The translations under genes and the position numbers were made by a program. The notes below the pieces were generated by a model. It had not been told where the DNA came from and made no database searches. It saw only the letters and a list, made by a program, of their open reading frames with translations. From contig CAYLWL010000002.1 of the NCBI GenBank assembly GCA_964387675.1, forward strand, positions 22,514-86,513: a DNA stretch of 64,000 nt, read 5' to 3'. Source of the stretch: an uncultured Candidatus Saccharibacteria bacterium. GTDB taxonomy: Bacteria; Patescibacteriota; Minisyncoccia; UBA6257; 2-01-FULL-56-20. This document shows, piece after piece, positions 3,745 to 59,670 of this stretch. How positions within the stretch are numbered: the first letter of the stretch is position 1; each line of letters begins with the position of its first letter.

Positions 3745-3783
3745 TTATTAGAATCTAGAATCTAGAAAATAGAAAGTAGAATT
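3745..3783. repeat. TAGAA-family hairpin arm (left arm flanking four-helix-bundle gene copy 1)
   Basis: ttattagaatctagaatctagaaaatagaaagtagaatt. The inverted partner is at 4147-4188. Confidence 0.7.
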
Positions 3784-4128
3784 ATGAGTAATACAAAATC
3801 TTTTAAAGATTTAATTGTATGGCAGAAAGCGCGGAGTTTGGCGGTTGCGGTATATAAACTTTCTGAACAATTTCCTAACGTAGAGCTATATGGCCTAACA
3901 AGTCAAATGCGTCGCGCGGCCATTTCCATTTCTTCCAACATCGCCGAAAGTTACCACCGTTTTCATAGAAAAGAAAAACAGCAGTTTCTTTCTATCGCTT
4001 TTGGCTCCGGCTCGGAACTAGAAAGCCAAATAGAAATCGCCAAAGTTTTATTTCCAAAGCTGGATTATCGAGAAAGTGAAGAATTATTGTTGGAGGTTAT
4101 GAAAATACTAAATAATTTTCTACAATGA
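3784..4128 (+). CDS. four-helix-bundle protein (23S rRNA intervening-sequence protein / DGR Avd-like family), copy 1
   Basis: 114 aa. WQKARSLAVAVYKLSEQFPNVELYGLTSQMRRAAISISSNIAESYHRF matches the S23-ribosomal/IVS four-helix-bundle family. Flanked by inverted TAGAA repeats. Confidence 0.8.
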   Translation: MSNTKSFKDLIVWQKARSLAVAVYKLSEQFPNVELYGLTSQMRRAAISISSNIAESYHRFHRKEKQQFLSIAFGSGSELESQIEIAKVLFPKLDYRESEELLLEVMKILNNFLQ

Positions 4129-5558
4129 TCAAAATCGAAAAATTAAAAATAGTTCTTCTACTTTCTATTTTCTATTTTCTACCTTCTCGTAAGCGGGGGC
4201 AGTCCACGATTGAGATTTTGATCGCGGTGACGATTCTGACCGCGGTTTTGACGAGCGCCGCCGCGCTCATTTTCGGCAGCCAATCGCTCTCGGTTGATTC
4301 CGCGGAAAGTAATCAGGCATTGCGTCTCGCCGAACAGGGCTTGGAGGGCGTCAAAAATCAGGCCAGATACGACTTCCTCAACATCGTTTCGAGCACCGTG
4401 ACGCAGGGTGAGTTCACGAAAAACATCATTGTCTCGAATGTAGGCGCGAACACGAAGCAAGTGGTAAGCCGCGTTACGTGGAGCACCGATCCGCAGAGAA
4501 CCCAGCAAGTCGAACTCGTGACGCTTGTGACGGATTGGCGCGGCGTGCAGGACACCGGCGGAGACACGGGGAGCGGCGGCGGTGGCGGCGGCGCTTCTGG
4601 CGACTGGTGCAATCCCGCAACCCTCGGCACGATCGATTTGGGATCGGGTGAGTCGGCGACGGGCATCGATGTGATCGCAACAACGACCTATATGACGGCA
4701 GTCGCTTCCTCCCCGAGCAAGAAGGACTTTTTCATCGTTGATGTTTCCAATTCCAGCACTCCTTCCATTATCGGGTCCATAGACACCGGGCCGGGACTCA
4801 ATGCTCTGGACGTGACGGCAAACTACGCTTATGTCGCGAGCGACGACAGCTCCAAGCAATTCCAAGCCATCGACGTCAGCAACAAGACCAGCCCGGTTCT
4901 CGTTGCATCCACCACTCTTACGAGCAATTCCGCCGTTGGACGGAGTATTTTTTACCATAATCAAAAAGTATATATCGGCACGGACGACAATAGTGGAAAC
5001 GAATTCCAGATTATCGACGTGGCCACTCCCGCAACCCCCGTGATTTTGGGAAGAGCTTCTTTGGATGAAGATGTGAATTCCATTTACGTGAGCGGGAACA
5101 AGGCATATCTTGCAACATCCGATACGTCGAAAGACGTGCAGATTTTCGATGTGTCGACTTCATCCGCGCCCGCGCTTCTTGGCACGTATGACATTTCGGG
5201 TGCCGGAGAAACGAAATGGCTGTATGTGGTTGGCACGAAAATGTATGTGGGCAGAGAAACCGGAGGAGATGAACTTTATGTATTGGATATTACGAATGCC
5301 ACTTCGGTGTCGGTGTTGGGCCATAAGGCGATCGGCAAAACGGTGAACGCGATTACAGTGCGCGGCAATTACGCGTTCCTTGCCACCTCCGACCCGAACA
5401 ACGAGCTCAAGATATTCGACGTTTCCAATCTTTCAAATATCACTTCCTGCAGTAACTTCAACTTTCCCAACATCGCGACCGCCGTCGATTTCGACGCCAA
5501 TCTGGTGTACACCGCCGTGCGATCGAACGACGGCCTGCGCATCGTGACATCGCAATAA
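4125..5558 (+). CDS. prepilin-like N-terminus fused to an LVIVD-repeat beta-propeller domain protein
   Basis: N-terminal KRGQSTIEILIAVTILTAVLTSAAALIFG is a pilin-type G/x-T-x-E plus TM. A Gly-rich linker (GGDTGSGGGGGGASGD) is followed by at least six repeats of the pattern xxIxDVSNxSxPxxxG (FIVDVSNSSTPSIIGS, QAIDVSNKTSPVLVAS, QIIDVATPATPVILGR, QIFDVSTSSAPALLGT, YVLDITNATSVSVLGH, KIFDVSNLSNITSCS). These are typical of LVIVD repeats. True start codon uncertain. Confidence 0.65.
   Translation: MIKIEKLKIVLLLSIFYFLPSRKRGQSTIEILIAVTILTAVLTSAAALIFGSQSLSVDSAESNQALRLAEQGLEGVKNQARYDFLNIVSSTVTQGEFTKNIIVSNVGANTKQVVSRVTWSTDPQRTQQVELVTLVTDWRGVQDTGGDTGSGGGGGGASGDWCNPATLGTIDLGSGESATGIDVIATTTYMTAVASSPSKKDFFIVDVSNSSTPSIIGSIDTGPGLNALDVTANYAYVASDDSSKQFQAIDVSNKTSPVLVASTTLTSNSAVGRSIFYHNQKVYIGTDDNSGNEFQIIDVATPATPVILGRASLDEDVNSIYVSGNKAYLATSDTSKDVQIFDVSTSSAPALLGTYDISGAGETKWLYVVGTKMYVGRETGGDELYVLDITNATSVSVLGHKAIGKTVNAITVRGNYAFLATSDPNNELKIFDVSNLSNITSCSNFNFPNIATAVDFDANLVYTAVRSNDGLRIVTSQ
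4147..4188. repeat. TAGAA-family hairpin arm (right arm); also encodes N-terminus of the following pilin-like ORF
   Basis: tagttcttctactttctattttctattttctaccttctcg is the reverse-complement partner of 3745-3783. It translates in frame as VLLLSIFYFLPSR preceding KRG|QSTIE. Confidence 0.7.
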
Positions 5559-5560
5559 AA

Positions 5561-5600
5561 TTAGAATTTAGTAGCTAGTATCTAGAAACTAGAATGCGAG
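5561..5600. repeat. TAGAA-family hairpin arm
   Basis: ttagaatttagtagctagtatctagaaactagaatgcgag. Partner at 5635-5668. Confidence 0.65.
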
Positions 5601-5624
5601 AAATAACCAACGCAAACGCAATTT

Positions 5625-6155
5625 ATGAATAAAATACTAGATTCTAGATTCCAGATTCTAGATTCTCGCAGAGGGTTTACCTTGATGGAGACCTTGATTT
5701 ACATCGCTCTTTTTTCCGTCATTACGAGCTATGTCCTTGGCGTGTTCTATCAACTCCTCGGCAGCCGCAACCAAAATCGCGACAGGACGGAAGTTGACGC
5801 GGAAGCGAACTTTCTCATGCAGAAACTGCGGTGGGCAATGAGCGGCGTCCAAACCGTCAACCAGCCGGCGACAGGCGCCACTTCGACGACGCTATCGGTC
5901 ACAAAGTACAATTTCGCGCAGAACCCGATCGTATTCGACCTTGATTCCAGTACCCTCCGAATGGCAAAGGGTGGGGGAGCGGCGGTAATTTTAAACAATA
6001 GCCGCGTGGGAGTGGGCCAGCTGACATTCGAGCGCCTGGCTCCGGTGAGTAACGCTCCGGAAGGAGTTACCATAACATTGTCGGTATCGTCCCTTGATGT
6101 TGAGCGGCCGGTCGTCGCTTCCACCACTATCGTGGACACCATTTATTTAAGGTAA
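5625..6155 (+). CDS. prepilin-type N-terminal cleavage/methylation domain protein (pseudopilin)
   Basis: MNKILDSRFQILDSRRG|FTLMETLIYIALFSVITSYVLG is a canonical class III signal peptide. Confidence 0.8.
   Translation: MNKILDSRFQILDSRRGFTLMETLIYIALFSVITSYVLGVFYQLLGSRNQNRDRTEVDAEANFLMQKLRWAMSGVQTVNQPATGATSTTLSVTKYNFAQNPIVFDLDSSTLRMAKGGGAAVILNNSRVGVGQLTFERLAPVSNAPEGVTITLSVSSLDVERPVVASTTIVDTIYLR
5635..5668. repeat. TAGAA-family hairpin arm that encodes the pilin leader peptide
   Basis: tactagattctagattccagattctagattctcg translates as ILDSRFQILDSR immediately before RG|FTLMETLI. Confidence 0.65.
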
Positions 6156-6207: not shown

Positions 6208-6648
6208 ATGAGAGAAAAGTTCTATCATATCGGCAACCTACTAAAAGCTATAAGCTATAAGCTAAAAGCCCGGGTTGGCTACATCGGCATCGTGTCGGCG
6301 CTTATCATATCGGCCGTTGTGGTTCTGATTATGGTCGCGGTGGGGCAGATTTCGTTCTTGAACCGCATCAACATTTCCGACACCCACTTAAAAAAGAAAA
6401 GCCGGGCGCTCGCGGAGGGGTGCGTCGACACAGCGCTCTTGAAGCTCGCGTCGAACGCTTCCTACGCCGGCAACGAAACCATCACTGTTGCGAGCGATAC
6501 ATGCAAAATCGTTTCCGTGGTTTCGTCGAGTACGGGAAAGATCATTTCTGCCCAGGGCAAGTTCCTCGGCGCGGTGACGGATGTCAAGGCGACCGTTGAC
6601 ACCAACACCTTCTCGATCGTGGGCTGGGAAGAGGTGAGGAGTTTTTGA
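6208..6648 (+). CDS. hypothetical membrane protein in pilus operon (possible minor pilin/PilX-like)
   Basis: 146 aa with one N-terminal TM helix (IGIVSALIISAVVVLIMVAVG). No recognisable motif. Confidence 0.4.
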   Translation: MREKFYHIGNLLKAISYKLKARVGYIGIVSALIISAVVVLIMVAVGQISFLNRINISDTHLKKKSRALAEGCVDTALLKLASNASYAGNETITVASDTCKIVSVVSSSTGKIISAQGKFLGAVTDVKATVDTNTFSIVGWEEVRSF

Positions 6649-6691
6649 TTAGAAAGTAGAATTTAGAAAATAGAAAGTAGAATCTGGAAAA
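6649..6691. repeat. TAGAA-family hairpin arm
   Basis: ttagaaagtagaatttagaaaatagaaagtagaatctggaaaa. Partner at 6710-6747. Confidence 0.65.
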
Positions 6692-6693
6692 CT

Positions 6694-7191
6694 ATGAAAA
6701 ATTTAAAAACAACTTCTATTTTCTATTTTCTAGATTCTAGATTCTCGAATAAGGGTTTCACTTTGATAGAGGTCGTCATATCGGTGGCAATCATTACGCT
6801 CCTTACGGTTGCTGCCATTGTTATTCTCGATCCCGCTCGGCAGTTTGCCAAATCGAGAAACACACAGCGCTGGTCGGATGTGAATGTGATTTTGAATGCG
6901 GTTGGGCAAAACACCGTTGACAACCGCGGAACTTTTTCGTGCAGTTCCGGCGGGATTCCCACGACTACGACGAGGATGGCGTCCAGCAGTCCGAACTACA
7001 ATATCGCGCCGTGCCTTGTAGCGACCTATTTAAGCGCCTTGCCGTTCGATCCGGCAACGAGCGGCGCGAAGTGGACGAGCGTAACCGATTACGACACCGC
7101 TTATAACATCCTGCGAAACGCCACAACCGGCCGCGTGACGATTTCCGCTCCGGCGGCCGAACTTGGGGAGAGCGTTACGGTCACGAGGTAG
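6694..7191 (+). CDS. prepilin-type N-terminal cleavage/methylation domain protein (pilin)
   Basis: MKNLKTTSIFYFLDSRFSNKG|FTLIEVVISVAIITLLTVAAIVIL. Confidence 0.8.
   Translation: MKNLKTTSIFYFLDSRFSNKGFTLIEVVISVAIITLLTVAAIVILDPARQFAKSRNTQRWSDVNVILNAVGQNTVDNRGTFSCSSGGIPTTTTRMASSSPNYNIAPCLVATYLSALPFDPATSGAKWTSVTDYDTAYNILRNATTGRVTISAPAAELGESVTVTR
6710..6747. repeat. TAGAA-family hairpin arm encoding pilin leader
   Basis: aacttctattttctattttctagattctagattctcg translates as TSIFYFLDSRFS before NKG|FTLIEV. Confidence 0.65.
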
Positions 7192-10560: not shown

Positions 10561-11871
10561 ATGAGGTTGCGGGTTATTTTGGGAATAGTTGCTCTCGGCG
10601 CCATATTTTTTTTGGTTTTTGTGCCGCGCGTGGTTATTATCGCGCCCGTTGAACTTGCGAAAGTCGCCGTGAAATCGGCCGCTTCCGTTCTCCCCGGCAT
10701 TCCGGAAGCGATCGTTCCAGAGTCGAAACAAGGCCAGTCGAAAATATCGGGAACATCGGATTTGCCCAATCAGCCGCCGCTCGCAAACCCGCCGGATGTC
10801 GCAAAGGGGATCTATGTGACCGGTTGGTCGGCGGGTTCGCAGTCGAGAATAAGCTCGCTCATCGCGCTTGTGAAGCGCACGGAAGTAAACGCGATGGTGG
10901 TGGATATCAAGGATTATTCGGGCAATGTTTCGTACAGAACGGGGCTTCCGGAAGTTGTCGCGGCGGGCGCGGAAGGAGAAATCCGCGTCGCTCAGCCGAA
11001 TGCCCTCATCAAACGGCTTCACGACGAGCATATCTACATCATCGGGCGCATCACCGTGTTCCAGGATCCCATTTTGGCGAAGGCGCATCCCGAGTGGGCG
11101 CTTCAAAACAAAGTGACCGGCAAAACATGGACAGATAGCAAAAAACTTTCCTGGATGGATGCGGCCGCCAAGCCCGTTTGGGATTATACTATTGCTATCG
11201 CCAAGGATGCTTTCGCGCGCGGCTTCGACGAAATTCAATTCGATTATGTGCGGTTCGCCTCCGACGGCGCGCTCGGAGAGATCGATTATCCGTTTTGGGA
11301 CGCGAAAACGCCGCGGCACAAAGTCATCGCCGAGTTTTTCAAGTATCTGCGGGACAGCTTGCCGGGCAAGAAGATTTCCGCCGATCTTTTCGGTCTTGCG
11401 GCAGTTGATACCTGGGATGACCTGGGAATAGGCCAGGTTATTGAAGACGCCTACAAAAACTTCGATTACGTTTCGCCGATGGTGTATCCTTCGCACTTCG
11501 CCGCGGGAACGCTTGGCTATAAAAGCCCCGCCCAGCATCCGTACGAAATCGTAAAGTATTCGATGGAGCAGGCGCTCGCGAGGTTAGCAAAGAGCAAAGA
11601 GCAAAGAGCAAATAGTTCTTCTACTATTATTATCACAACATCATCCGATCAATTCGCTATCGGCCCTTTGCCCTTCGCTGCGAAGTTACGCCCGTGGCTT
11701 CAGGACTTCAATCTCGGAGCAACCTATAACGCGGAGATGGTGCGCAAGCAGATCCAGGCGACCTATGACGTTTTCCTGAACGGCACTTCGAGCGATCCTT
11801 CCAGATTCGGCGGCTGGATACTCTGGGATCCCGCGAATACGTACACGGAAGGAGCGTTGGAGCGAGGATGA
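10561..11871 (+). CDS. secreted/membrane-anchored hypothetical protein, possibly GH-like TIM-barrel (DUF4015/GHL10-type) family
   Basis: N-terminal TM/signal (ILGIVALGAIFFLVF). Motif block GIYVTGWSAGS...VNAMVVDIKDYSGNVSY recalls the COG1306 putative glycoside hydrolase family. Contains the in-frame repeat insertion LAKSKEQRANSSSTIIITTSS (11581-11640). Confidence 0.4.
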   Translation: MRLRVILGIVALGAIFFLVFVPRVVIIAPVELAKVAVKSAASVLPGIPEAIVPESKQGQSKISGTSDLPNQPPLANPPDVAKGIYVTGWSAGSQSRISSLIALVKRTEVNAMVVDIKDYSGNVSYRTGLPEVVAAGAEGEIRVAQPNALIKRLHDEHIYIIGRITVFQDPILAKAHPEWALQNKVTGKTWTDSKKLSWMDAAAKPVWDYTIAIAKDAFARGFDEIQFDYVRFASDGALGEIDYPFWDAKTPRHKVIAEFFKYLRDSLPGKKISADLFGLAAVDTWDDLGIGQVIEDAYKNFDYVSPMVYPSHFAAGTLGYKSPAQHPYEIVKYSMEQALARLAKSKEQRANSSSTIIITTSSDQFAIGPLPFAAKLRPWLQDFNLGATYNAEMVRKQIQATYDVFLNGTSSDPSRFGGWILWDPANTYTEGALERG

Positions 11872-11875
11872 TACT

Positions 11876-12619
11876 TTGAAACACATGACACAAACATACG
11901 AACTAAAGCTCGAAAAATTCAGCGGACCGCTTGAAAAACTCCTCGAATTGATCGAAGAGAAAAAGCTTCAGATTGCCGAAATCAGCTTGGCTCAAGTTAC
12001 GGATGATTTTTTGAAGTATTTTAAGGCGCTTACCGATCTCGAGCGGGATTTGCATCTTGTGGCGGATTTTATTTCTATCGCAAGCAAGCTGATCCTTATA
12101 AAGTCAAAGTTCTTACTGCCGGATTTGACGCTTACGCCGGATGAAGAGCAGGGCATCAAAGACCTTGAGAAGCGCCTCAAAATGTATCAAGAACTCAAGC
12201 CGGTGTTGAAGATTCTCGAGAAGCTTTGGCAGGGAGCGGAACGGGAATTCGGCCGGGAATACTTTTTGAGCAAGGGCTACGTATCGGGCGGAGATGCCCA
12301 TTTTGTTTTTTACCCGGGCAAGGGGCTGTATACGCAAGCTCTCTTCGAAGCGGCAAAAAAGCTTTTCGACGCGCTCCGCGTGGAGGAGCTCGAAACGAAA
12401 ACAATCAAAGAAAAGATCATCAGTATTGAAGAAAAGATTGGGGAGGTGATCAAAAGGATTGAGAACGAATTAGAGATGAACTTTTCCAATCTGTCGAGCA
12501 AAAAATCCCGATCGGAAATCGTAGTCATCTTCCTCGCTATTTTGCACCTGGCTCGCGAGCAGCTCATATATCTTGAGCAATCGGAGCATTTCTCTGATAT
12601 AATCGTTAGAAAGAAATGA
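11876..12619 (+). CDS. scpA: segregation and condensation protein A
   Basis: LEKFSGPLEKLLELIEEKKLQIAEISLAQVTDDFLKYF matches the ScpA N-terminal signature. Followed by scpB. Confidence 0.8.
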   Translation: MKHMTQTYELKLEKFSGPLEKLLELIEEKKLQIAEISLAQVTDDFLKYFKALTDLERDLHLVADFISIASKLILIKSKFLLPDLTLTPDEEQGIKDLEKRLKMYQELKPVLKILEKLWQGAEREFGREYFLSKGYVSGGDAHFVFYPGKGLYTQALFEAAKKLFDALRVEELETKTIKEKIISIEEKIGEVIKRIENELEMNFSNLSSKKSRSEIVVIFLAILHLAREQLIYLEQSEHFSDIIVRKK

Positions 12620-12650
12620 GATATGAGATATGAGAGATGAGGTCATAAAC
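12606..12650. repeat. ATGAGA-family hairpin arm (left arm flanking four-helix-bundle gene copy 2)
   Basis: agaaagaaatgagatatgagatatgagagatgaggtc. Provides the ATG of the 4HB ORF. Confidence 0.7.
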
Positions 12651-13004
12651 GAAGAAAAGTTTATTTTCGAGGATTTAAGGGTGTATCATAGAGCGTTGCA
12701 GCTTGCCGTTGAGCTTACTAAAATTGCAACAAAACTCCCCCACAGTTACTCGAGGATACGAGACCAGTTAATCGGGGCAGTTATTTCTATCCCATTAAAT
12801 CTTGCCGAAGGATCAGGTAGGTTGGGTGAAAAGGATAAAAAGAACTTCTATAAATTTAGTCGCTCTTCGGCATTTGAACTGATTCCAATTATTGATATAA
12901 TTTACCAATTAGAGCTTATCAACAAAGAGAAAAGAAATAATATTCGCCGCGAAGTTGTAGAACTTTCGCGTATCATTTCTGCTTTAATAAAAAAATCGTC
13001 CTAA
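12630..13004 (+). CDS. four-helix-bundle protein (23S rRNA IVS protein / Avd-like), copy 2
   Basis: KFIFEDLRVYHRALQLAVELTKIATKLPHSYSRIRDQLIGAVISIPLNLAEGSGR. Paralog of the 28266-28637 copy (about 60-65% identity by eye). Confidence 0.8.
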   Translation: MRDEVINEEKFIFEDLRVYHRALQLAVELTKIATKLPHSYSRIRDQLIGAVISIPLNLAEGSGRLGEKDKKNFYKFSRSSAFELIPIIDIIYQLELINKEKRNNIRREVVELSRIISALIKKSS

Positions 13005-13040
13005 TTTCTCATTTCTCATGTCTAATTTCTCAATAGAAAA
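13000..13040. repeat. ATGAGA-family hairpin arm (right arm); overlaps scpB start
   Basis: cctaatttctcatttctcatgtctaatttctcaatag. ATG TCT AAT TTC TCA = MSNFS of ScpB. Confidence 0.7.
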
Positions 13041-13623: not shown

Positions 13624-14144
13624 CCTTAAAATCTTATATCTCTCCCGGGGTGAAAATAAAGAGAAGCAAAATTCAAGGCCTTGGGTTGGCCGCTGTAAAA
13701 AGTTTTAGAAAAGGAGACATCGTTGGCATAAAGAATGGCCATATTTTCGACAAGAAACAGTTTAAAAAACTCGGTGGATTTCAGAGTGATCTTGGCCGCG
13801 CGTTTTTACAAATAGCCGACAACTTTTTTATTGGACCCTCGCAACCTAAAGAATTGAAAAGAAGTAATATGTTTGTAAATCATTCTTGTGATCCCAACAT
13901 TGGGTTTCTGGGAAATATTGTTTCGGTTGCTATGCGTGACATAAGAACGGGGGAAGAACTAACCAACGATTACGCTACTTGGGTGAACTATCCATCTTAC
14001 GAATTAAGATGTAATTGTGGGAGTGGGACTTGTCGCAAAGTTATTACAGGTAGAGATTGGCGTCAGCCAAAACTTCAGAAAAAATACAAAGGATTTTTTT
14101 CGGCTTATATCCAAAAAAAGATTCACACGACACATGACACTTGA
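13620..14144 (+). CDS. SET-domain protein-lysine methyltransferase
   Basis: SET signature NHSCDPN and ELTNDY, plus Cys-rich post-SET CNCGSGTCRK. The 4-nt overlap with the scpB stop suggests translational coupling. Confidence 0.8.
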   Translation: MTLKSYISPGVKIKRSKIQGLGLAAVKSFRKGDIVGIKNGHIFDKKQFKKLGGFQSDLGRAFLQIADNFFIGPSQPKELKRSNMFVNHSCDPNIGFLGNIVSVAMRDIRTGEELTNDYATWVNYPSYELRCNCGSGTCRKVITGRDWRQPKLQKKYKGFFSAYIQKKIHTTHDT

Positions 14145-14158
14145 TACTTGATACGAAC
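14125..14158. repeat. GTGTCA/TGACAC-family tandem repeat at SET gene 3' end
   Basis: cacgacacatgacacttgatacttgatacg. Encodes the C-terminal HTTHDT* of the SET protein. Confidence 0.55.
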
Positions 14159-15227: not shown

Positions 15228-15235
15228 AGAAAAAA

Positions 15236-15332
15236 GAAATGAGATATGAGAAACGAGGAACGAAAAGGAGTTCCCGATTGCACGAAACGTTCGTAGTTCC
15301 CAATCTCTCATTTCTAATTTCTCATCTCTAGA
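15236..15332. repeat. ATGAGA-family ORF-less hairpin element
   Basis: gaaatgagatatgagaaacgaggaacg ... caatctctcatttctaatttctcatctctag inverted arms around a 38-nt loop. Confidence 0.75.
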
Positions 15333-16402: not shown

Positions 16403-16467
16403 GAATCATTAAATTAAAATCATTTCCGTTATAACATAATATTATGTTATAACGGAAATGATTTTGT
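16403..16467. terminator. perfect long palindrome after mraY (putative terminator/regulatory hairpin)
   Basis: aatcatttccgttataacataat|attatgttataacggaaatgatt followed by ttgtgg. Confidence 0.55.
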
Positions 16468-18621: not shown

Positions 18622-18685
18622 TCCTGCCTGCCGGCAGGCAAGGCCTGTCTGCCGGCAGGCAGGCCTGCCTACCGGCAGACAGGGA
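18622..18685. repeat. GC-rich palindromic repeat (GCCTGCCGGCAGGCAGG units)
   Basis: cctgcctgccggcaggcaaggcctgtctgccggcaggcaggcctgcctaccggcagacaggg. Same family at 54726-54768. Confidence 0.75.
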
Positions 18686-25874: not shown

Positions 25875-26228
25875 ATGAACATGTTGAGCAAGGACGGCAT
25901 TTTGAAATTCAGGATCGTTTACTCAATGTTTCTTTTTGATTTCGCTTTGGTTCTCGGCGGTGTGCTGTGGGCTTATTTCTCTCTACGAAACGCGAGCGGG
26001 CCGGTGGTCATCCACTTTAACGACATTGCCGGCATCAACCGTATCGGAAGTTTCTGGGACGTGGTTGGAATCGGCGTAACGGGCCTTGCCATAGTCGTTC
26101 TTAACTTATTTATAGCTCTCGAGTTCGAAAAAAGAGACCGATTTTGGGGGAAGCTGGCGGCCGCTTTCACGGTCGTTGTGAGCATCTTGATTTTTATAGC
26201 GTTAGCGGCTATCATATCTGTAAACTAA
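25875..26228 (+). CDS. hypothetical small membrane protein
   Basis: 117 aa with 3 predicted TM helices. Confidence 0.4.
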   Translation: MNMLSKDGILKFRIVYSMFLFDFALVLGGVLWAYFSLRNASGPVVIHFNDIAGINRIGSFWDVVGIGVTGLAIVVLNLFIALEFEKRDRFWGKLAAAFTVVVSILIFIALAAIISVN

Positions 26229-26309
26229 GAAAGTAGAAATGAGATATGAGAAATGAGGAACGCGTGCCCCTAGCCCCTAATCTCTCATTTCTAATTTCTC
26301 GTCTCTAAA
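26226..26309. repeat. ATGAGA-family ORF-less hairpin element
   Basis: aagaaagtagaaatgagatatgagaaatgaggaacg cgtgcccctagcccc taatctctcatttctaatttctcgtctctaaac. Confidence 0.75.
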
Positions 26310-27817: not shown

Positions 27818-28234
27818 TTGCCATTAGCCGCAACTATGGACCAACCCTCTCAATCATTTGAACATGAAGCCCTCGAGGCCGATATTAAAGCCCTTGCGCA
27901 GGAAGTCGAGAAACATCGCGAACTTCCGGAGAATAAAGGCGTGAGCGGGCAGGAGTTGTTAAAGAAAGCAATCCGTGCCTTGCCGCCGGTTTCAACCGCG
28001 ACAGAGCCCGTCTCAAAACCCTCACGGCCGAGTCCGCTCCCGCAGTACGCGCAAAGCGCCTCGCCGGAAGTCCGTCTTGAAATCGAGTACTTGATTGACT
28101 TGGCTTTCCACGCCGGTATCGGTAAGGCCTCGGCGGAAGCGAAGAAATCCCCCGATTTCGTGCAAGACGCTTTTCATGACGCCTTGGCCGGAAAACTGTA
28201 CCCGATGTTTCAGGAGAGGGGAATACTTAAATAG
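27818..28234 (+). CDS. hypothetical protein
   Basis: 138-aa ORF, acidic helical. Preceded by a ctttgctctttgcc repeat. Confidence 0.35.
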   Translation: MPLAATMDQPSQSFEHEALEADIKALAQEVEKHRELPENKGVSGQELLKKAIRALPPVSTATEPVSKPSRPSPLPQYAQSASPEVRLEIEYLIDLAFHAGIGKASAEAKKSPDFVQDAFHDALAGKLYPMFQERGILK

Positions 28235-28265
28235 AGATTAGAGATGAGAAATGAGATATTAGGAT
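28222..28265. repeat. ATGAGA-family hairpin arm (left arm flanking four-helix-bundle copy 3)
   Basis: tagagattagagatgagaaatgagatattaggatatgagc. Confidence 0.7.
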
Positions 28266-28637
28266 ATGAGCAATGAAAAATTTATTTTTGAAGATTTAAG
28301 GGTTTATCACGGGGCATTAAAACTTTCAGTGGAGCTTACTAAGCTGGCTACGAAATTTCCACACGACTATTCGAGAATACAAAATCAATTAATTGGAGCA
28401 GCTATTTCTGTTCCCTTGAATCTCGCCGAGGGTTCTGGAAGGGAAAGCGATAAGGATAAAAAGAATTTTTATAGAATTAGTAGATCATCTATTTTTGAAC
28501 TCGTGCCTCTTATTGATATAATTTACGAACTAGGACTCATAGGAAGCGACAAGCGAGATGAAATTCGTCACGAAGTTGCGGAACTTTCGCGAATTGTTTC
28601 CACCTTAATGAAAAACAAAGTTTCTCAAAAGTCCTAA
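28266..28637 (+). CDS. four-helix-bundle protein (23S rRNA IVS protein / Avd-like), copy 3
   Basis: MSNEKFIFEDLRVYHGALKLSVELTKLATKFPHDYSRIQNQLIGAAISVPLNLAEGSGR. Confidence 0.8.
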   Translation: MSNEKFIFEDLRVYHGALKLSVELTKLATKFPHDYSRIQNQLIGAAISVPLNLAEGSGRESDKDKKNFYRISRSSIFELVPLIDIIYELGLIGSDKRDEIRHEVAELSRIVSTLMKNKVSQKS

Positions 28638-28662
28638 TTTCTCATTTCTAATATCTCATCTC
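28625..28662. repeat. ATGAGA-family hairpin arm (right arm)
   Basis: cctaatttctcatttctaatatctcatctctaaat. The same right arm recurs at 59630-59665 and 36765-36780. Confidence 0.7.
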
Positions 28663-28667
28663 TAAAT

Positions 28668-31040
28668 ATGTTTATTTACTTCCTTATGGGTTTTATCGTA
28701 AGCGCCGTTTTGGGCGTGAGTATTTATTTTTTGGCACGGCACATCGTTCGAGGCAAGCTTTTCGCGTCTTTGGGAATGACGCTCTTGCTCATCAAGATTC
28801 CCCGCGAAACCTCCGCCCAAAACGCGCCGGAAAAAGATTTCAAAACGGAGATTAATCGATTCGAGCAGCTTTTGGGCGGGCTCGCTTCTTTGAAGAAGCC
28901 GGTTGTGTTTGAGGCGGCGGTGCCCCACGTCGGCGAGGAAATCCATTTTTATCTCGCGGTGCCCAAAAAAATGATGGAGGTAGCCATAAAACAAGTCCAG
29001 GGTTTGTGGAACGGAGCGAGCGTCGACATCGCCCCTGATGACTTCAATATCTTTAACGCCAATGGCGCGACCTCGGCCGCCTATATTATGCAGAAAGAAA
29101 ACTATGCCTTGCCGATTCGGAGTTACTTGGAACTTGGGCTCGATTCGTTCGCGTCCGTTATCGGCGGCTTTTCGAAGGTTGCCGAAATTGGCGAAGGCGC
29201 GGCGCTGCAAATTGTTCTGCGGCCCGGCCCGAAAGACGCCAAGAAAAAAATCCACGGTTTCATCCAATCCCTCAAAAAGGGCGAGCCGCTCAAAAAAGTG
29301 TTCGGCCACGAATTTCCGGTGAGTTTCTCGGAGATCGGCCAGGCCCTGAATCCCAAGAAAGAGGAAGAGAAGAAAGAGAAGATCGTCGACGAAGAGGCGG
29401 TGAAGGCGCTCGAAATGAAAATAACAAAGCCCTTATTTGAGGTGAACGTGAGGGTGGTATGCTCGGCGGGTTCCAAATTCCAGTCGGATGATATTTTGGA
29501 CGGTATCACCGCGGGTTTCAATCAATTCGGCAGTCCGAGGAGGAATGAGTTCAGGGTGGTAAAACCGAGAAACCCAAACACGGTGGCTCGCCAGTTCATA
29601 TTCCGGAATTTTGAGTCCTCGCAAAGAATGCTACTCTCTGCCGAGGAAATCGCGAGCTTCTATCATTTTCCGACGGCGCTCACCGAAACGCCTCGAATCA
29701 AATGGCTCAAGTCCAAAGAAGCCCCGCCGCCCGCAAACTTGCCCGCGAGCGGCATCCAGATAGGAGAGAGTTTATTCCGCGGCCAGACGAAGCCCGTATA
29801 TATAACACACGAGGATAGGCGGCGGCATGTGTATACCATCGGTCAGACGGGTACGGGAAAATCCACGCTTTTGGGCAATATGATTATCGAAGACATCAAG
29901 CAGGGGAGGGGCGTGGCAATCATCGATCCTCACGGCGATCTGGTGGGCAACGCCTTGGGTTTTATTCCGAAAGACCGGATTGACGACTTGATTTATTTCG
30001 ACCCCGCGGATCTTGAAAGGCCGCTTGGACTCAACATGCTGGATTATAATTTTGATCGTCCCGAAGAGAAGACATTCATCGTGAACGAGATGCAGAGTAT
30101 CTTTAACAAACTGTTCCCACCGGAGACGATGGGCCCGATGTTCGAGCAGTATATGAGGAACGCGCTTTTGCTTTTAATGGAAGACATGCCCAACGAACCG
30201 GCGACGCTCATTGAGGTCCCCAGGGTTTTTACGGACGCAGAGTACCGCGCGCGCAAACTCGAGCGGATTCAGAATCCCGTGGTCATCGATTTTTGGGAAA
30301 AAGAAGCGGTGAAGGCGGGAGGCGAAGCGTCTCTTGCCAATATGACGCCGTATATCACCTCTAAATTCAACAACTTCATTTCGAACGACTATATGCGGCC
30401 GATTATCGGCCAGGCGAAGTCGGCGTTCAATTTCAGAAAGGTGATGGATGAAGGAAAGATTTTACTCATCAATCTTTCCAAGGGAAGGATTGGAGACATC
30501 AACGCCGGACTTCTCGGCATGGTGTTCACCGGAAAGATTTTGATGGCCGCTTTGTCGAGAGTGGACATAGCCGAGGTTGAGAGGCGGCGTGACTTTAATC
30601 TCTACATAGACGAATTCCAAAACTTCACGACGGATTCCATCGCCACGATTCTCTCTGAGGCAAGAAAATACAAATTGAATCTGACGATGGCGCACCAGTT
30701 CATTGCCCAGCTCACGGAAAAAATCCGCGACGCGGTTTTCGGCAACGTCGGTTCGCAGATTGTGTTTCGCGTCGGCGTGCAGGATGCGGAGTTTTTGGTG
30801 AAGCAGTTCGAGCCGGTGTTTAGTCAGAACGATTTATTGAATATCGACAACTTGAACGCCTACGCGAAGATTTTAATCAACGGCGAAACGTCAAAACCCT
30901 TTAACATTAAAATTCTTACCACTTCCTGGGGAGCGGGCGACAAAGACATGGCCCAAAAGCTAAGGGAATACTCAAGGATGAAATACGGCATGGATCGGCA
31001 GGGGATCGAGGCGGAGATTTATAGGAGGTTGCGAGAGTAA
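28668..31040 (+). CDS. membrane-anchored P-loop ATPase of the VirD4/TraD/TraG type IV coupling-protein-like family
   Basis: N-terminal TM (FIYFLMGFIVSAVLGVSIYFL). HVYTIGQTGTGKSTLLGNMI (Walker A), then AIIDPHGDLVGNALGFIPKDRIDDLIYFDPAD, which parallels the TrwB/VirD4 block (vIvDPnGD...ilnP.d), and LYIDEFQNF (Walker B). Confidence 0.55.
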   Translation: MFIYFLMGFIVSAVLGVSIYFLARHIVRGKLFASLGMTLLLIKIPRETSAQNAPEKDFKTEINRFEQLLGGLASLKKPVVFEAAVPHVGEEIHFYLAVPKKMMEVAIKQVQGLWNGASVDIAPDDFNIFNANGATSAAYIMQKENYALPIRSYLELGLDSFASVIGGFSKVAEIGEGAALQIVLRPGPKDAKKKIHGFIQSLKKGEPLKKVFGHEFPVSFSEIGQALNPKKEEEKKEKIVDEEAVKALEMKITKPLFEVNVRVVCSAGSKFQSDDILDGITAGFNQFGSPRRNEFRVVKPRNPNTVARQFIFRNFESSQRMLLSAEEIASFYHFPTALTETPRIKWLKSKEAPPPANLPASGIQIGESLFRGQTKPVYITHEDRRRHVYTIGQTGTGKSTLLGNMIIEDIKQGRGVAIIDPHGDLVGNALGFIPKDRIDDLIYFDPADLERPLGLNMLDYNFDRPEEKTFIVNEMQSIFNKLFPPETMGPMFEQYMRNALLLLMEDMPNEPATLIEVPRVFTDAEYRARKLERIQNPVVIDFWEKEAVKAGGEASLANMTPYITSKFNNFISNDYMRPIIGQAKSAFNFRKVMDEGKILLINLSKGRIGDINAGLLGMVFTGKILMAALSRVDIAEVERRRDFNLYIDEFQNFTTDSIATILSEARKYKLNLTMAHQFIAQLTEKIRDAVFGNVGSQIVFRVGVQDAEFLVKQFEPVFSQNDLLNIDNLNAYAKILINGETSKPFNIKILTTSWGAGDKDMAQKLREYSRMKYGMDRQGIEAEIYRRLRE

Positions 31041-36680: not shown

Positions 36681-37305
36681 TAATACAAACAGTTGGTAAT
36701 TCAGGCGATCGCTCTTGCGTGCGTAGCACGCAGAAAATGAGGTATGAGATATGAGAAATTAGGAACGACCTAATATCTCAAGGGAGAAGCCCGTTCTCAT
36801 TTCTTGTTTCTTGCGCGCTGCGCGCGCAGGGGAGGAAAGTCCGGACACCGGCGTGCGTGGCACGCAGCACGGGGCAAAGGGCAAATCGCAAAGGGCAGTC
36901 GGTTTAACCGAACTCTTTGCTCTTGGCTCTAAGCTATTTGCTGCGCGCTGCGCGCGCAAGCGTAGCGGCTAACAGCCGTCGTCCGCAAGGATAGAGGTGC
37001 GAGCAGAGACGCCGCGTGGCGAAAGCTTTACGCGGGGACCCAATCCTAAGCTCGTTGGTCTAGTCCTGCCATAGGGATAAAAAAGCAGGAGTGAAACGGC
37101 TAAATCCTTACAGGGTGTAAGGCCGTACTCCGATGTTACGCATCGGTTTGTGCCGCATTGAGCCAAAGAGTAATCGATGGCCCAGATAAATGATCGTCAG
37201 AGTGTTCCCGAATCCCGAATTACTTACGAATATACGAATTCGTATATTCGTGTAGATTCGTAATTAGCGAATACTCCACAGAATCCGGCTTACGAATTGC
37301 CAACG
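36681..37305 (+). ncRNA. rnpB: RNase P RNA (bacterial type), unusually long because of inserted repeat hairpins
   Basis: P4 5' strand GGAGGAAAGTCCGGAC at 36831-36846. P4 3' strand ACAGAATCCGGCTTA at 37278-37292. P1 pairing gttggtaattc (36681-36691) with gaattgccaac (37295-37305). Terminator immediately 3'. Confidence 0.75.
36733..36811. repeat. ATGAGA-family hairpin located inside rnpB at the P3 position
   Basis: gaaaatgaggtatgagatatgagaaattaggaacgacctaat...gttctcatttcttgtttc lies between the P1/P2 5' strands and the P4 5' strand. Confidence 0.65.
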
Positions 37306-37308
37306 AAT

Positions 37309-43555: not shown

Positions 43556-43572
43556 AATCTTTTTCTGATTCA

Positions 43573-43934
43573 GACCCCATCTCAAAAATAATCATCATAG
43601 TGCTTCAAGTGCTTATTTTTGAGATAGGGTCTCCCTTCGACCTTTCTTTTCTTTCGGTCCATTGACTTCGTTGAGGAGGCGATGCCGAGAATGAATCTAG
43701 GCATCGCCTGAAGTGAGTGGGGGATGGGAGGACTAACCTCCATTGCCGGGTGTTGCCGATCGAAGTTCTGCCAGAGTTTCCGGATTAAGAGTCCGGGCTT
43801 GTGACAGCACCGCCGTTCACCCAAGCACCGCAACCGTGGCCTTTGGTCACGGGGGACGCGCGATTTTTATCAAGGACAGCGCTTATTGTCCCTCACACCC
43901 CACACATTATGAGGATTTCTCCTCAACGAAGTCA
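43573..43934. other. non-coding structured element between rpsP and KH gene: local hairpin plus a 273-bp unit bounded by 17-bp inverted repeats
   Basis: Hairpin accccatctcaaaaata...tatttttgagatagggt (43573-43632). Terminal inverted repeat ttgacttcgttgaggag (43662-43678) / ctcctcaacgaagtcaa (43918-43934). Several internal hairpins. Confidence 0.5.
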
Positions 43935-49262: not shown

Positions 49263-49269
49263 CCATTTA

Positions 49270-49299
49270 AGTGTCAGGTGTCAAGTGTCAGGTGTCAAG
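49270..49299. repeat. GTGTCAG tandem heptamer repeat
   Basis: gtgtcaggtgtcaagtgtcaggtgtcaag directly upstream of the rsh start. Confidence 0.8.
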
Positions 49300-49420
49300 A
49301 AAAACGAAGAGAAAACGAAATAACCGTCCGGAAAACCCGAATGGCTATCATCGCTAAATCTCCCGCTTCGCCAACGAAGCGAGGCGAGTCGGCGAAGCGA
49401 GTGATAATTTAAAGTTTTTC

Positions 49421-54725: not shown

Positions 54726-54768
54726 CAGTGGCAGACCTGCCTGCCGGCAGGCAGGTCTGCCTGCCGGC
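54726..54768. repeat. GC-rich palindromic repeat (same family as 18622-18685)
   Basis: cctgcctgccggcaggcaggtctgcctgccggcaggcagggcg. Confidence 0.75.
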
Positions 54769-58668: not shown

Positions 58669-59566
58669 TCTCTTAAAAGAAGTCATAGAAGTTTTACATC
58701 CTCGTCCGGGTTCGTTTGTGATCGATGGCACGATAGACGGCGGAGGGCACGCGGCCGCAATCCTTGAAAGAATTGTGCCGGGCGGCAGATTCTTGGGAGT
58801 AGATTGGGATGGTGAAGCCGTGAAAGAAACCAAAAGAAGAATTGCGGCAATTCCTAATCACCAATTTCTAATTTCTAAACCTCTTTTGGTTCATGGAAAT
58901 TACGCCGACCTCCCCGCGATTTTGAAAAAGAAGGGGATGGGAAAGGCCGACGGTTTGCTTCTTGATCTCGGTTTCTCTTCGGAACAGCTGGAGTCCGCCG
59001 GTGGCCGGATGGGGAAGGGATTCAGCTTCGCGAAAAAAGACGAGCCGTTGCTCATGACATACGACGCGGAACGCAAGCCGGTGAAAAAGCTCCTTCGGGA
59101 ACTGAGCGTTCGGGAGCTCGCGCGCATCATTCACGACTTGAGCGGAGAAAGATTTGCCATGCGCGTTGCCGAAGCGATCAAGGAGAAGATGAAGGCAAAA
59201 CCGATCGAAACCACCCGAGATCTCCGAGACATCGTGCACGCCGCTGTTCCAAGAAATTACGAGCACGGACGAATCGACCCGGCCACCCGTACGTTCCAGG
59301 CCTTGAGAATCTACGCGAACGATGAGCTTGGAAATCTCAGAAAACTTATTGACCGTCTTCCCGAGATACTGAAGCCCGGCGGACGCGCGGCAATCATAAG
59401 TTTCCACTCTCTGGAAGATAAGATCGTGAAGGACTTATTTCGGGATTTTGCCAAGAGGGGAATCGTGGAGATTTTGACCAAAAAGCCAATCGTCCCGTCG
59501 CGAGAAGAGATTTACTCCAATCGCCGGAGCCGGTCGGCCAAATTGAGAGCGGCGCAGTTAGTTTAG
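58652..59566 (+). CDS. rsmH: 16S rRNA (cytosine1402-N4)-methyltransferase
   Basis: HQPVLLKEVIEVL, VIDGTIDGGGHAAAIL, SAM-MTase motifs. Confidence 0.85.
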   Translation: MTHQPVLLKEVIEVLHPRPGSFVIDGTIDGGGHAAAILERIVPGGRFLGVDWDGEAVKETKRRIAAIPNHQFLISKPLLVHGNYADLPAILKKKGMGKADGLLLDLGFSSEQLESAGGRMGKGFSFAKKDEPLLMTYDAERKPVKKLLRELSVRELARIIHDLSGERFAMRVAEAIKEKMKAKPIETTRDLRDIVHAAVPRNYEHGRIDPATRTFQALRIYANDELGNLRKLIDRLPEILKPGGRAAIISFHSLEDKIVKDLFRDFAKRGIVEILTKKPIVPSREEIYSNRRSRSAKLRAAQLV

Positions 59567-59665
59567 TTAGAAATGAGAAATGAGACATGAGACATGAGGA
59601 GCAAGAAACGAGACGTTGGCGATGCTGAACGACCTAATTTCTCATTTCTAATATCTCATCTCTAT
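59567..59665. repeat. ATGAGA-family ORF-less hairpin element between rsmH and ftsL
   Basis: ttagaaatgagaaatgagacatgagacatgagg...gaacgacctaatttctcatttctaatatctcatctcta. Confidence 0.75.
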
Positions 59666-59670
59666 TTATT

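What the first reader, a model, noticed from the sequence alone, without database searches (positions are those of the whole stretch)
28222..28665. Second ATGAGA-arm-flanked four-helix-bundle cassette, immediately upstream of a VirD4/TraD-like ATPase
A paralog of the scpA/scpB-embedded copy (shared FIFEDLRVYH, IPLNLAEGSGR, RSSxFELxPxIDIIY blocks) is flanked by tagagattagagatgagaaatgagatattagg (left) and cctaatttctcatttctaatatctcatctctaaat (right). The right arm is nearly identical to the arms at 59630-59665 and in rnpB. It sits 30 nt upstream of a 790-aa membrane-anchored coupling-protein-like ATPase. The element family is therefore multi-copy within 64 kb, pointing to recent mobility.
Basis: seen in the sequence. 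Interest (0 to 1): 0.7.

Follow-up and report, generated by a model that had tools for sequence, protein, structure and literature searches.

The report
Four-helix-bundle gene inside heptad-repeat palindrome
[quoted passage not shown] It is one member of a family of such hairpins, most without the gene, that fill this genome's operon spacers, its RNase P RNA gene and even some protein-coding genes.

Summary
ORF 28266-28637 encodes a PF05635/TIGR02436 four-helix-bundle (4HB) protein. It is flanked by 40-nt inverted arms (83% complementary) built of ATGAGAN/NTCTCAT heptads.

A paralogous cassette lies between scpA and scpB. A third, distant 4HB at 3784-4128 has different heptad arms (TAGAAWN). 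Each arm type also occurs as ORF-less hairpins in the window.

The cassette is a lineage-specific insertion. In 80 related contigs the 138-aa upstream gene and the ATPase are adjacent, with a 2-21 nt spacer in the closest relatives measured. None has a 4HB gene within the fetched flanks (up to 3 kb), so there is no link to the coupling-protein-like ATPase.

'Recent mobility' is not supported. The two paralogs have saturated synonymous sites (dN/dS 0.075), yet the arms stay about 86-97% identical.

Close 4HB homologues in other genomes carry the same arms at other insertion sites. Across 80 4HB loci from several phyla, 6-8 nt periodic arrays cluster at the gene ends (p=3e-21).

Best reading: an rRNA-IVS-type palindromic cassette living in mRNA spacers, with REPIN/RPE-like ORF-less derivatives. 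RNase III processing and a role of the 4HB protein in spreading the hairpins are inferred, not shown.

The parts
28225..28264 (+). Left arm of the cassette: about five heptads (AGATTAG AGATGAG AAATGAG ATATTAG G). It contains the TAG stop codon of the upstream gene (28232-28234).
   Evidence: Inverted repeat I1. Period-7 segment 28228-28263. Pairs with the right arm in the MFE fold.
28266..28637 (+). 4HB gene (123 aa), family PF05635 / TIGR02436 ('23S rRNA intervening sequence protein', Avd-like).
   Evidence: Purifying selection against the paralog, dN/dS 0.075.
28632..28671 (+). Right arm (CCTAAT-T-TCTCAT-T-TCTAAT-A-TCTCAT-C-TCTAA). It overlaps the 4HB stop codon and ends 2 nt before the ATG of the ATPase.
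27818..28234 (+). Conserved 138-aa gene with no Pfam hit. It is the ancestral immediate upstream neighbour of the ATPase.
   Evidence: Ortholog detected upstream of the ATPase in 69 of 80 related loci, directly adjacent in most of them. Spacer 2-21 nt in the closest relatives measured.
28668..31040 (+). 790-aa membrane-anchored coupling-protein/HerA-like P-loop ATPase. It is a conserved CPR gene and not part of the element.
   Evidence: At least 541 relatives at 58-79% identity among the 80 kept.
12605..13034 (+). Paralogous A-type cassette (arms 12605-12642 and 12998-13034, ORF 12630-13004). It fills the scpA stop to scpB start interval; the scpB ATG lies inside the right arm.
3745..4192 (+). 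B-type cassette: a distant 4HB (3784-4128, 38% identity) with arms of a different heptad, TAGAAWN / NWTTCTA.
   Evidence: Inverted repeat I4.
15228..15331 (+). ORF-less A-type hairpin between the D-Ala-D-Ala carboxypeptidase gene and the glycosyltransferase-4 gene.
26226..26308 (+). ORF-less A-type hairpin ending 4 nt before the rplU start codon.
   Evidence: z -3.65.
59563..59665 (+). ORF-less A-type hairpin between rsmH and ftsL. Its right arm matches the 28.6 kb right arm at 32 of 33 positions.
36731..36815 (+). A-type-like hairpin inside the RNase P RNA gene (about 36693-37308), 5' of the GAGGAAAGUCCGG P4 strand. Two further heptad hairpins of other unit types lie at 36870-36950 and 37200-37285.
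   Evidence: RNaseP_bact_a, E 6e-9, 34 bits, below the gathering score; z -6.7 and -7.0.
5558..5670 (+). ORF-less B-type (TAGAAWN) hairpin in the pilin gene cluster.
   Evidence: (I8).
6648..6751 (+). ORF-less B-type hairpin with 32-nt arms, 88% complementary.
   Evidence: (I6).

Best explanation
**What it is.** The region is a roughly 430-nt palindromic cassette of the same kind as the ORF-bearing intervening sequences (IVS) of 23S rRNA. It consists of a PF05635 four-helix-bundle gene nested between two inverted arms made of tandem heptads. Here it sits in an mRNA rather than in rRNA.

**Shown.**
- It was inserted into a spacer that is 2-21 nt long in the closest relatives measured, between the stop codon of a conserved 138-aa gene and the start codon of a conserved coupling-protein-like ATPase. 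It now spans stop to start exactly.
- ORF and arms travel together. 4HB homologues 55-74% identical to the window's two A-type copies, in other genomes, carry the same ATGAGA/TCTCAT arms at different insertion sites.
- The protein is under strong purifying selection.
- The arms are far better conserved than neutral sites.
- ORF-less hairpins with the same arms are scattered through the genome. A second 4HB type in the same window has its own arm type and its own ORF-less hairpins.

**Inferred.**
- The cassette is co-transcribed with the flanking genes and the arms pair into an imperfect stem of about 35 bp.
- As in Coxiella, Leptospira and Salmonella IVSs, RNase III would cut this stem and release the 4HB message. 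This would make the insertion tolerable to the host.
- The ORF-less hairpins would be non-autonomous derivatives, like MITEs, REPINs or Rickettsia palindromic elements.
- The 4HB protein may act in trans on its cognate arms. This is the least secure step.
For: - **Family and fold:**
- **Arms pair and are non-random:**. Shifted-window controls reach a maximum score of 13.5, against 14-23 for real cassettes.
- **Insertion against an empty site:**
- **Same arms with diverged ORFs at other sites:** L006, L167 (T4SS-like cluster), L169 (scpA|scpB) and L170.
- **Selection:** dN/dS 0.075 with saturated dS, while the right arms are 32/37 to 32/33 identical.
- **Cognate ORF-less hairpins** for both 4HB types in the window. 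The same holds in Saccharibacteria-like tRNA operons, arranged tRNA-Met | 4HB | tRNA-Met | ORF-less hairpin | tRNA-Asp.
- **Family-wide link:** 41 of 94 periodic arrays (6-8 nt) lie within 200 nt of 4HB gene ends, against 7.7% expected, p=2.6e-21.
- **Published IVS precedent:** the Coxiella 23S IVS has an S23p (4HB) ORF, a 28-bp terminal stem, tandem heptameric repeats (GACAGAT) in its 5' arm, and is excised by RNase III (PMC4990558).
- **Other operon insertions:** 4HB genes wedged between cas genes have been reported (PMC3936711).
- **Stop-to-start fit:** all five A-type elements flanked by protein genes span stop to start exactly.
Against: - No RNase III gene, transposase or reverse transcriptase lies in the 64 kb window (Pfam), so no processing or mobility enzyme is identified.
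- Stem mismatches show no excess of G:U over A:C (32 vs 35 in 34 stems). An RNA-level constraint on pairing is therefore not demonstrated.
- A regular mismatch at the seventh position, and arm sequence conserved beyond what pairing requires, fit protein-binding repeats as well as they fit a stem.
- No presence/absence polymorphism was found among near-identical contigs.
- No target-site duplication could be defined.
- For Coxiella, the authors argue that S23p is not translated.
Confidence: 0.6

Rival explanations
1. A DNA-level transposon-like element. The arms would be inverted arrays of 6-bp protein-binding sites spaced at 7 bp (an iteron-like terminal inverted repeat), recognised as DNA by the pentameric 4HB protein or an unlinked enzyme. 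The hairpin-forming potential would then be a by-product or a single-stranded-DNA intermediate, as in REP/RAYT systems or IS200/IS605 elements. RNA processing would be irrelevant.
For: - G:U is not favoured over A:C in the stems.
- Mismatches fall regularly at the variable seventh position, and the core hexamer is conserved across ORFs with saturated synonymous sites.
- Solo arrays exist without a partner arm, at 14122-14157 and 49266-49301, and in the L087 spacer.
- An arm holds about five heptads, and the known relatives XCC0516 and Avd are pentamers (PMC4990558 citing Lin 2006).
- In Bacteroidota the 4HB gene is flanked by two copies of a complete hairpin, as a RAYT gene is flanked by REPs (L070).
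Against: - The 4HB fold has no known nuclease or recombinase chemistry. From my own knowledge, bAvd binds nucleic acids without sequence specificity.
- The period differs between lineages (6, 7 and 8 nt), which argues against a fixed double-stranded-DNA geometry.
- All A-type elements have the same orientation relative to transcription. The C-type hairpin in minus-strand topA is flipped along with its gene.
- The rRNA members of the family are demonstrably RNA stems cut by RNase III.
Confidence: 0.2
2. Host-serving operon punctuation. The heptad hairpins would be recruited regulatory structures, acting in mRNA processing or stability, or in translational coupling. The upstream stop codon lies in the left arm and the downstream ATG follows the right arm, so a terminating ribosome would melt the stem. 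The 4HB protein would be an RNA-binding regulator or chaperone of these structures. On this reading the system is no longer selfish.
For: - Hairpins occupy most junctions of conserved operons: parA|parB, mraZ|rsmH|ftsL, ftsI|murE, and upstream of rplU.
- All five protein-gene-flanked A-type elements span stop to start exactly.
- The right arms, which cover the downstream translation-initiation region, are the best conserved part.
- The 4HB protein is under purifying selection.
- Period-7 arrays are common across 563 kb of related CPR contigs, at 13 per 100 kb against about 1 for other periods.
Against: - The same gene pair works without any hairpin in most relatives.
- Different relatives carry unrelated insertions in the same spacer.
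- Hairpins also sit inside rnpB and in frame inside topA and DUF4015. That is what indiscriminate insertion filtered by selection would produce, and not what a regulatory design would.
Confidence: 0.15
3. The 4HB gene is the accessory protein (Avd) of a diversity-generating retroelement.
For: PF05635 is the family that matches Avd (PMC10053308). From my own knowledge, diversity-generating retroelements are common in CPR bacteria.
Against: - No reverse transcriptase lies in the 64 kb window or in 9 kb further upstream; the only RVT_3/RNase_H hit is a 156-aa RNase HI.
- The window holds three 4HB genes, each alone between unrelated housekeeping genes.
Confidence: 0.03
4. The flanks are chance low-complexity AT-rich sequence.
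For: Heptad arrays are abundant genome-wide.
Against: - Shuffles give 0 matches to the arm.
- The arms are mutually complementary over 40 nt.
- The same arms accompany diverged homologues in other genomes.
Confidence: 0.01

Closest known systems
ORF-bearing intervening sequences of 23S rRNA (Leptospira; Coxiella burnetii IVS with S23p)
   Same: Same protein family (PF05635) and the same size (about 430 nt). The ORF sits in the loop of a long terminal stem. Tandem heptameric repeats lie in the arm next to the start codon (GACAGAT in Coxiella; PMC4990558).
   Different: This copy is not in rRNA. It lies in a spacer between two protein-coding genes. Here the protein is clearly under purifying selection. 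Cognate ORF-less copies are dispersed through the genome. RNase III cleavage has not been tested.
REP/REPIN elements and their RAYT genes (my own knowledge: Nunvar 2010; Bertels and Rainey 2011)
   Same: A single small gene is flanked by inverted copies of a short repeat. That repeat also occurs as many ORF-less palindromes in intergenic spacers. Distinct gene subtypes in one genome each have their own repeat type.
   Different: The gene is a four-helix bundle with no HUH/Y1 transposase motifs. The arms are tandem 6-8 nt periodic arrays rather than a single REP.
Rickettsia palindromic elements (my own knowledge: Ogata 2000; papers listed)
   Same: Palindromic repeats in a reduced genome that insert in frame into protein-coding genes and into RNA genes. 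Here the GCAAAGR hairpins lie in topA, DUF4015 and rnpB.
   Different: Rickettsia palindromic elements have no associated ORF and no heptad periodicity. The cassette under review is intergenic and carries an ORF.
Correia/NEMIS elements of Neisseria (my own knowledge: De Gregorio 2002-2003)
   Same: MITE-like inverted repeats co-transcribed with neighbouring genes, whose RNA hairpins are cut by RNase III.
   Different: Correia elements have defined terminal inverted repeats with a TA target duplication and no ORF. No target duplication could be defined here.
Avd of diversity-generating retroelements (bAvd, PDB 4DWL)
   Same: Homologous pentameric four-helix-bundle family that binds nucleic acids.
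   Different: No reverse transcriptase, template repeat or variable repeat lies nearby.

Membership tests
PF05635 / TIGR02436 four-helix-bundle protein (23S rRNA IVS protein, S23p) | Scores above the curated HMM cutoffs over the full domain | tested here: met
   PF05635 80.3 bits (cutoff 33.8), residues 9-111 on profile positions 1-104 of 106. TIGR02436 78 bits (cutoff 24)..
PF05635 / TIGR02436 four-helix-bundle protein (23S rRNA IVS protein, S23p) | Conserved motif GxxRxxxSxxxNxxE (PMC3936711) | tested here: inconclusive
   S48, N52 and E55 are invariant in alignment A1. In the A-type copies the Arg position is Gly (LIGAAISVPLNLAEG). The B-type copy keeps Arg (MRRAAISISSNIAES).
PF05635 / TIGR02436 four-helix-bundle protein (23S rRNA IVS protein, S23p) | Homopentameric toroid of four-helix bundles | not tested
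   Only sequence homology to 2GSC was obtained (E 1e-8). No structure or oligomer prediction was run.
23S rRNA intervening sequence (IVS) | Located in helix 25 or helix 45 of the 23S rRNA gene | tested here: not met
   The cassette lies between two protein-coding genes. No rRNA gene is in the window.
23S rRNA intervening sequence (IVS) | Terminal inverted repeats forming a long stem with the ORF in the loop | tested here: met
   40-nt arms, 83% complementary, paired in the MFE fold.
23S rRNA intervening sequence (IVS) | Excision from the transcript by RNase III without re-ligation | not testable with these tools
   No transcript data are available, and no rnc gene is in the window.
DGR accessory protein Avd | Adjacent reverse transcriptase and template-repeat/variable-repeat pair | tested here: not met
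   No RVT_1-type protein among the window ORFs of 70 aa or more that were scanned (a few ORFs under 120 aa were not). Only an RNase HI is present.
REPIN/RAYT system | The flanked gene is a Y1 (HUH) transposase | tested here: not met
   The only Pfam and NCBIfam hits are four-helix-bundle families.
REPIN/RAYT system | Gene flanked by inverted repeats that also occur as dispersed ORF-less palindromes, with a subtype-specific repeat | tested here: met
   A-type: 2 cassettes and 4 ORF-less hairpins. B-type: 1 cassette and at least 2 ORF-less hairpins.
MITE (for example Correia) | Terminal inverted repeats plus a target-site duplication | tested here: inconclusive
   Terminal inverted repeats are present. 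The comparison with empty sites leaves the ancestral spacer too short and too diverged to define a duplication.
Type IV coupling protein (VirD4/TraD/TraG), for the downstream gene | Membership in equivalog models and linkage to a relaxase or T4SS | tested here: not met
   Pfam domain cutoffs are passed weakly. NCBIfam scores are 21-54 bits against cutoffs of 250-970. The neighbours are housekeeping genes, and the conserved partner is a 138-aa protein of unknown function.

The most novel reading that the evidence does not exclude
PF05635 four-helix-bundle proteins are the trans-acting partners of a large, unrecognised class of short-period palindromic repeats with 6-8 nt units. The ORF-bearing rRNA intervening sequences known since 1993 would then be only the first-noticed members. 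The same elements colonise tRNA operons, mRNA spacers, RNase P RNA and, for stop-free repeat units, protein-coding genes. This happens in CPR bacteria and in other phyla. Each 4HB subtype would recognise its own repeat unit, with about five units per arm for a pentamer, and would promote its spread or maintenance. The arrangement would be analogous to RAYT and REPIN but based on an unrelated fold.
Probability: 0.3. Interest if true: 0.85.

Novelty: new variant of a known kind. Interest (0 to 1): 0.62.

Why it matters

These data tie the family to a specific sequence partner: periodic inverted arms. They also tie it to dispersed ORF-less hairpins that carry the same arms. This yields a directly testable hypothesis of cognate arm binding, with two natural specificity pairs (ATGAGAN and TAGAAWN) in a single genome.

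The data also explain practical annotation problems in CPR genomes:
- RNase P RNA falling below Rfam thresholds because of helix 'extensions' (PMC8172020);
- assemblies breaking or joining wrongly at arms;
- odd insertions in conserved proteins such as TopA.

Tried and rejected
1. **Co-occurrence with the coupling-protein-like ATPase.** I fetched 80 related loci and none had a 4HB gene. Rejected. Homologous cassettes do occur inside T4SS-like clusters elsewhere, which I treat as coincidence.
2. **Polymorphic insertion.** Logan contig L005 joins 28136-28664 to 59633-60181 exactly through the 32-nt shared arm. I read this as an assembly chimera and not as evidence of mobility.
3. **RNA-specific wobble signature.** G:U versus A:C mismatches in 34 stems came to 32 vs 35, p=0.69. 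This gives no support for RNA-level pairing, and I report it as a negative result.
4. **DGR context.** A Pfam scan of nearly all window ORFs of 70 aa or more found no reverse transcriptase.
5. **Extending the contig to find cognate 4HB genes for the other hairpin families.** 9 kb upstream held none. The downstream look-ups returned only short contigs.
6. **Rfam at gathering threshold for rnpB.** It found nothing. The gene appears only at the E-value threshold, with a distorted alignment.
7. **Literature.** No paper in the library links four-helix-bundle proteins to intergenic inverted repeats.
8. **Target-site duplication.** Not definable from the empty-site comparison.
Full report
**Source.** The window comes from a Candidatus Liptonbacteria (CPR/Patescibacteria) metagenome-assembled genome, contig JACQKV010000013.1 of 98,590 nt. 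Its genes are ordinary chromosomal ones:
- pilB/pilC and pilins, dnaX, scpA/scpB, mreB/mreC and PBP2;
- rplU, pgk, RNase HI, rnpB and aminoacyl-tRNA synthetases;
- parA/parB, relA/spoT, topA, dprA and the mraZ-rsmH-ftsL-ftsI-murE cluster.

I found no transposase, reverse transcriptase or RNase III gene.

**Check of the observation.**
- ORF 28266-28637 (123 aa) is a confident member of PF05635/TIGR02436 (E about 1e-22). It is homologous to the pentameric four-helix-bundle protein XCC0516, PDB 2GSC.
- It is bracketed by arms 28225-28264 and 28632-28671, which are 40 nt long and 83% complementary. They pair in the minimum-free-energy fold of the 466-nt transcript.
- The right arm recurs at 59633-59665 with 1 mismatch and at 26276-26308 with 3 mismatches. 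Shuffled sequence gives no such match.
- The paralog at 12630-13004 lies between ScpA and ScpB. It is 72% identical in protein and 73% in DNA.
- A third 4HB gene at 3784-4128 is only 38% identical.

**Seven-base periodicity of the arms.**
- Both arms are tandem heptads: ATGAGAN on the left and NTCTCAT on the right, giving six paired bases and one variable base.
- The window holds 31 period-7 tandem segments, against 0-1 for periods 5, 6, 8 and 9.
- The segments fall into several unit families: ATGAGAN (A), TAGAAWN (B), GCAAAGR (C), GTGTCAR/YTGACAC (D), GTTAGCT (E) and others.
- Most form hairpins in the spacers of conserved operons.
- The distant 4HB gene at 3784-4128 is flanked by B-type arms. 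ORF-less B-type hairpins lie at 5558-5670 and 6648-6751.
- ORF-less A-type hairpins lie at 15228-15331, 26226-26308 and 59563-59665. A looser one lies inside the RNase P RNA gene at 36731-36815.
- So each 4HB subtype in this genome has a cognate population of ORF-less hairpins.

**The cassette is an insertion.**
- The downstream ATPase has at least 541 relatives in metagenomes.
- In 80 fetched loci (58-79% identity) no 4HB gene lies within the fetched flanks of up to 3 kb. An ortholog of the 138-aa upstream gene was found in 69 of them, directly adjacent to the ATPase in most.
- In the closest relatives measured, the stop and start codons are 2-21 nt apart, or overlap.
- In the window the native TAG stop codon is retained. 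The cassette fills the interval to the ATG exactly.
- Other relatives carry unrelated insertions at the same spacer: an E-type heptad hairpin in L115, other hairpins in L098 and L152, and short ORFs in L086 and L122.
- The proposed association with the coupling-protein-like gene is therefore not supported.
- That gene passes Pfam domain cutoffs only weakly and fails every NCBIfam equivalog cutoff.

**Age and selection.**
- Between the two A-type ORFs, synonymous sites are saturated: pS 0.72, dS about 2.3, dN 0.18, dN/dS 0.075. The duplication is old and the protein is functional.
- The arms are much better conserved. Right arms match at 32 of 37 positions between the two cassettes, and at 32 of 33 between 28.6 kb and 59.6 kb.
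- The scpA|scpB insertion is shared with another organism (L169). Its 4HB is 72% identical to the window's scpA|scpB copy and 71% to the 28.2 kb copy.
- The one apparent polymorphism, L005, is a join through the 32-nt shared arm. It is most simply an assembly artefact.
- 'Recent mobility' is thus not shown.

**ORF and arms form one unit.** 4HB homologues 55-74% identical to the window's two A-type copies, from other genomes, carry ATGAGA/TCTCAT heptad arms at different sites:
- L006;
- L167, in a TrbL-PrgI-TraC/VirB4-like cluster;
- L169, at scpA|scpB;
- L170.

A 58-61% identical copy in L166, between a histidine kinase gene and pyrG, has a variant unit, AATAGAN. A 24% identical copy in the same contig has GTAATKA arms.

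**Generality across phyla.**
- In 80 4HB loci drawn from GTDB genomes, flanking inverted repeats exceed every shifted-window control in 14 of the 74 loci that could be scored.
- Periodic arrays of 6-8 nt are concentrated within 200 nt of the 4HB gene ends: 41 of 94, against 7.7% expected, p=2.6e-21.
- The period depends on lineage. It is 7 in Parcubacteria and some Proteobacteria, 8 (ATGAGTNN) in Saccharibacteria-like genomes, and 6 in Bacteroidota.
- Many cassettes sit in stable-RNA or highly expressed operons. Examples are tRNA-Met | 4HB | tRNA-Met | cognate ORF-less hairpin | tRNA-Asp, tmRNA | 4HB | tRNA-Glu, and a copy immediately upstream of rplK.
- In 563 kb of related CPR contigs, period-7 arrays occur at 13 per 100 kb, against about 1 for neighbouring periods.

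**Published context.**
- The Coxiella burnetii 23S IVS is 428 nt long and encodes an S23p (4HB) ORF. It has a 28-bp terminal stem and tandem heptameric repeats (GACAGAT) in its 5' arm that vary in number between strains. RNase III excises it (PMC4990558).
- PF05635 ORFs occur in CPR 16S and 23S rRNA insertions (PMC11270868).
- They also occur between cas genes (PMC3936711).
- PF05635 is the Avd-like family (PMC10053308).
- I found no paper linking 4HB genes to dispersed intergenic palindromes.

**Mechanism.**
- Shown: the anatomy, the insertion, joint inheritance of ORF and arms, purifying selection, and the cognate ORF-less copies.
- Inferred by analogy with rRNA IVSs: co-transcription, and RNase III cleavage of the stem.
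- Against a purely RNA-level reading, G:U mismatches are not favoured over A:C (32 vs 35). The arm cores are also conserved beyond what pairing needs. This keeps alive a DNA-level or protein-binding reading of the arms.
- For all five A-type elements flanked by protein genes, the upstream stop codon lies in or at the left arm. The downstream ATG follows the right arm within 5 nt, or lies inside it for scpB. This is compatible with translational coupling by stem melting.
- Whether the 4HB protein mobilises or maintains the hairpins is unknown.

**Related observations.**
- C-type (GCAAAGR) hairpins have no stop codon in any of the six frames, as direct reading of the repeat shows. They occur in frame inside topA. 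The copy at 52012-52078 is a 19-residue insertion relative to PDB 6ozw, and a second copy lies at 50279-50324.
- They also occur inside DUF4015, where the Pfam match is about 33 residues longer than the profile, and inside rnpB.
- Families whose units contain stop codons were seen only outside ORFs. Indiscriminate insertion followed by selection would produce this pattern. It resembles the Rickettsia palindromic elements.
- The rnpB gene (about 36693-37308) scores only 34 bits against a gathering score of 100, because of three heptad hairpins. This matches the report of diverged CPR RNase P RNAs with extended helices (PMC8172020).

**Verdict.** The feature is real. It is a new variant of a known kind: an IVS-type 4HB cassette outside rRNA, embedded in a REPIN- or RPE-like family of heptad palindromes.

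Noticed in passing
window 52012-52078 and 50279-50324 (topA, minus strand); 11580-11690 (DUF4015 gene): GCAAAGR heptad hairpins lie in frame inside protein-coding genes. In TopA one encodes a 19-residue insertion (EQRAKSKRSAPLPSAIGPLP) absent from solved homologues. This unit has no stop codon in any of the six frames.
   Followed up: partly
window 36693-37308: The RNase P RNA gene carries three heptad hairpins (36731-36815, 36870-36950, 37200-37285). It is missed at the Rfam gathering score (34 bits against 100).
   Followed up: partly
window 55809-56082: A 26-nt inverted repeat (96% complementary) closes a 275-nt GC-rich, extremely structured element just upstream of tRNA-Ile. The RNA fold gives -154.5 kcal/mol with z -12, and there is no Rfam match. 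The same CCCATCTCAAAA motif forms a short hairpin at 43572-43632.
   Followed up: partly
window 18623-18683 and 54736-54775: Tandem copies of the 20-nt palindrome CCTGCCTGCCGGCAGGCAGG occur three times at the first site and twice at the second. None is expected by chance.
   Followed up: no
window 16416-16465: A perfect 25+25 nt palindrome with no loop lies between the glycosyltransferase-4 gene and the aminotransferase gene.
   Followed up: no
window 28495-28522 (also about 12874-12901; L169): A sigma-70-like promoter with an extended -10 (TTGAAC, 16 nt, TGATATAAT) lies inside the 4HB ORF and points at the downstream gene. The TTG-N3 ... TTGATATAAT core is kept in the three closest copies despite saturated synonymous sites. 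It is absent from more distant homologues.
   Followed up: partly
window 14122-14157, 49266-49301; L087 2982-3000: Solo heptad arrays with no partner arm fill very short stop-to-start spacers. With period 7, their TGA or TAG falls in all three reading frames.
   Followed up: no
L166 1663-2043 and L167 8001-8372: In other CPR contigs, 4HB cassettes sit inside T4SS-like gene clusters (PrgI | 4HB | TraC/VirB4-like, and 404-aa gene | 4HB | PrgI). This is a curious echo of the window's ATPase neighbour, but it is not reproduced in 80 loci of that ATPase.
   Followed up: partly
L005 (Logan contig SRR12113418_1845027): The contig joins window 28136-28664 to 59633-60181 through the 32-nt identical arm. 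Several other Logan contigs end inside the same arm. These arms break or mis-join short-read assemblies.
   Followed up: yes
window 27818-28234 with 28668-31040: A 138-aa protein with no Pfam family is the conserved immediate upstream partner of the coupling-protein-like ATPase across many CPR contigs. The pair may form a two-gene module of unknown function.
   Followed up: partly
L171 7040-9412 (about 1.6-4 kb upstream of the window start): The PurD (GARS) gene is 790 aa long and has a faint LAGLIDADG_3 hit, which suggests an intein.
   Followed up: no
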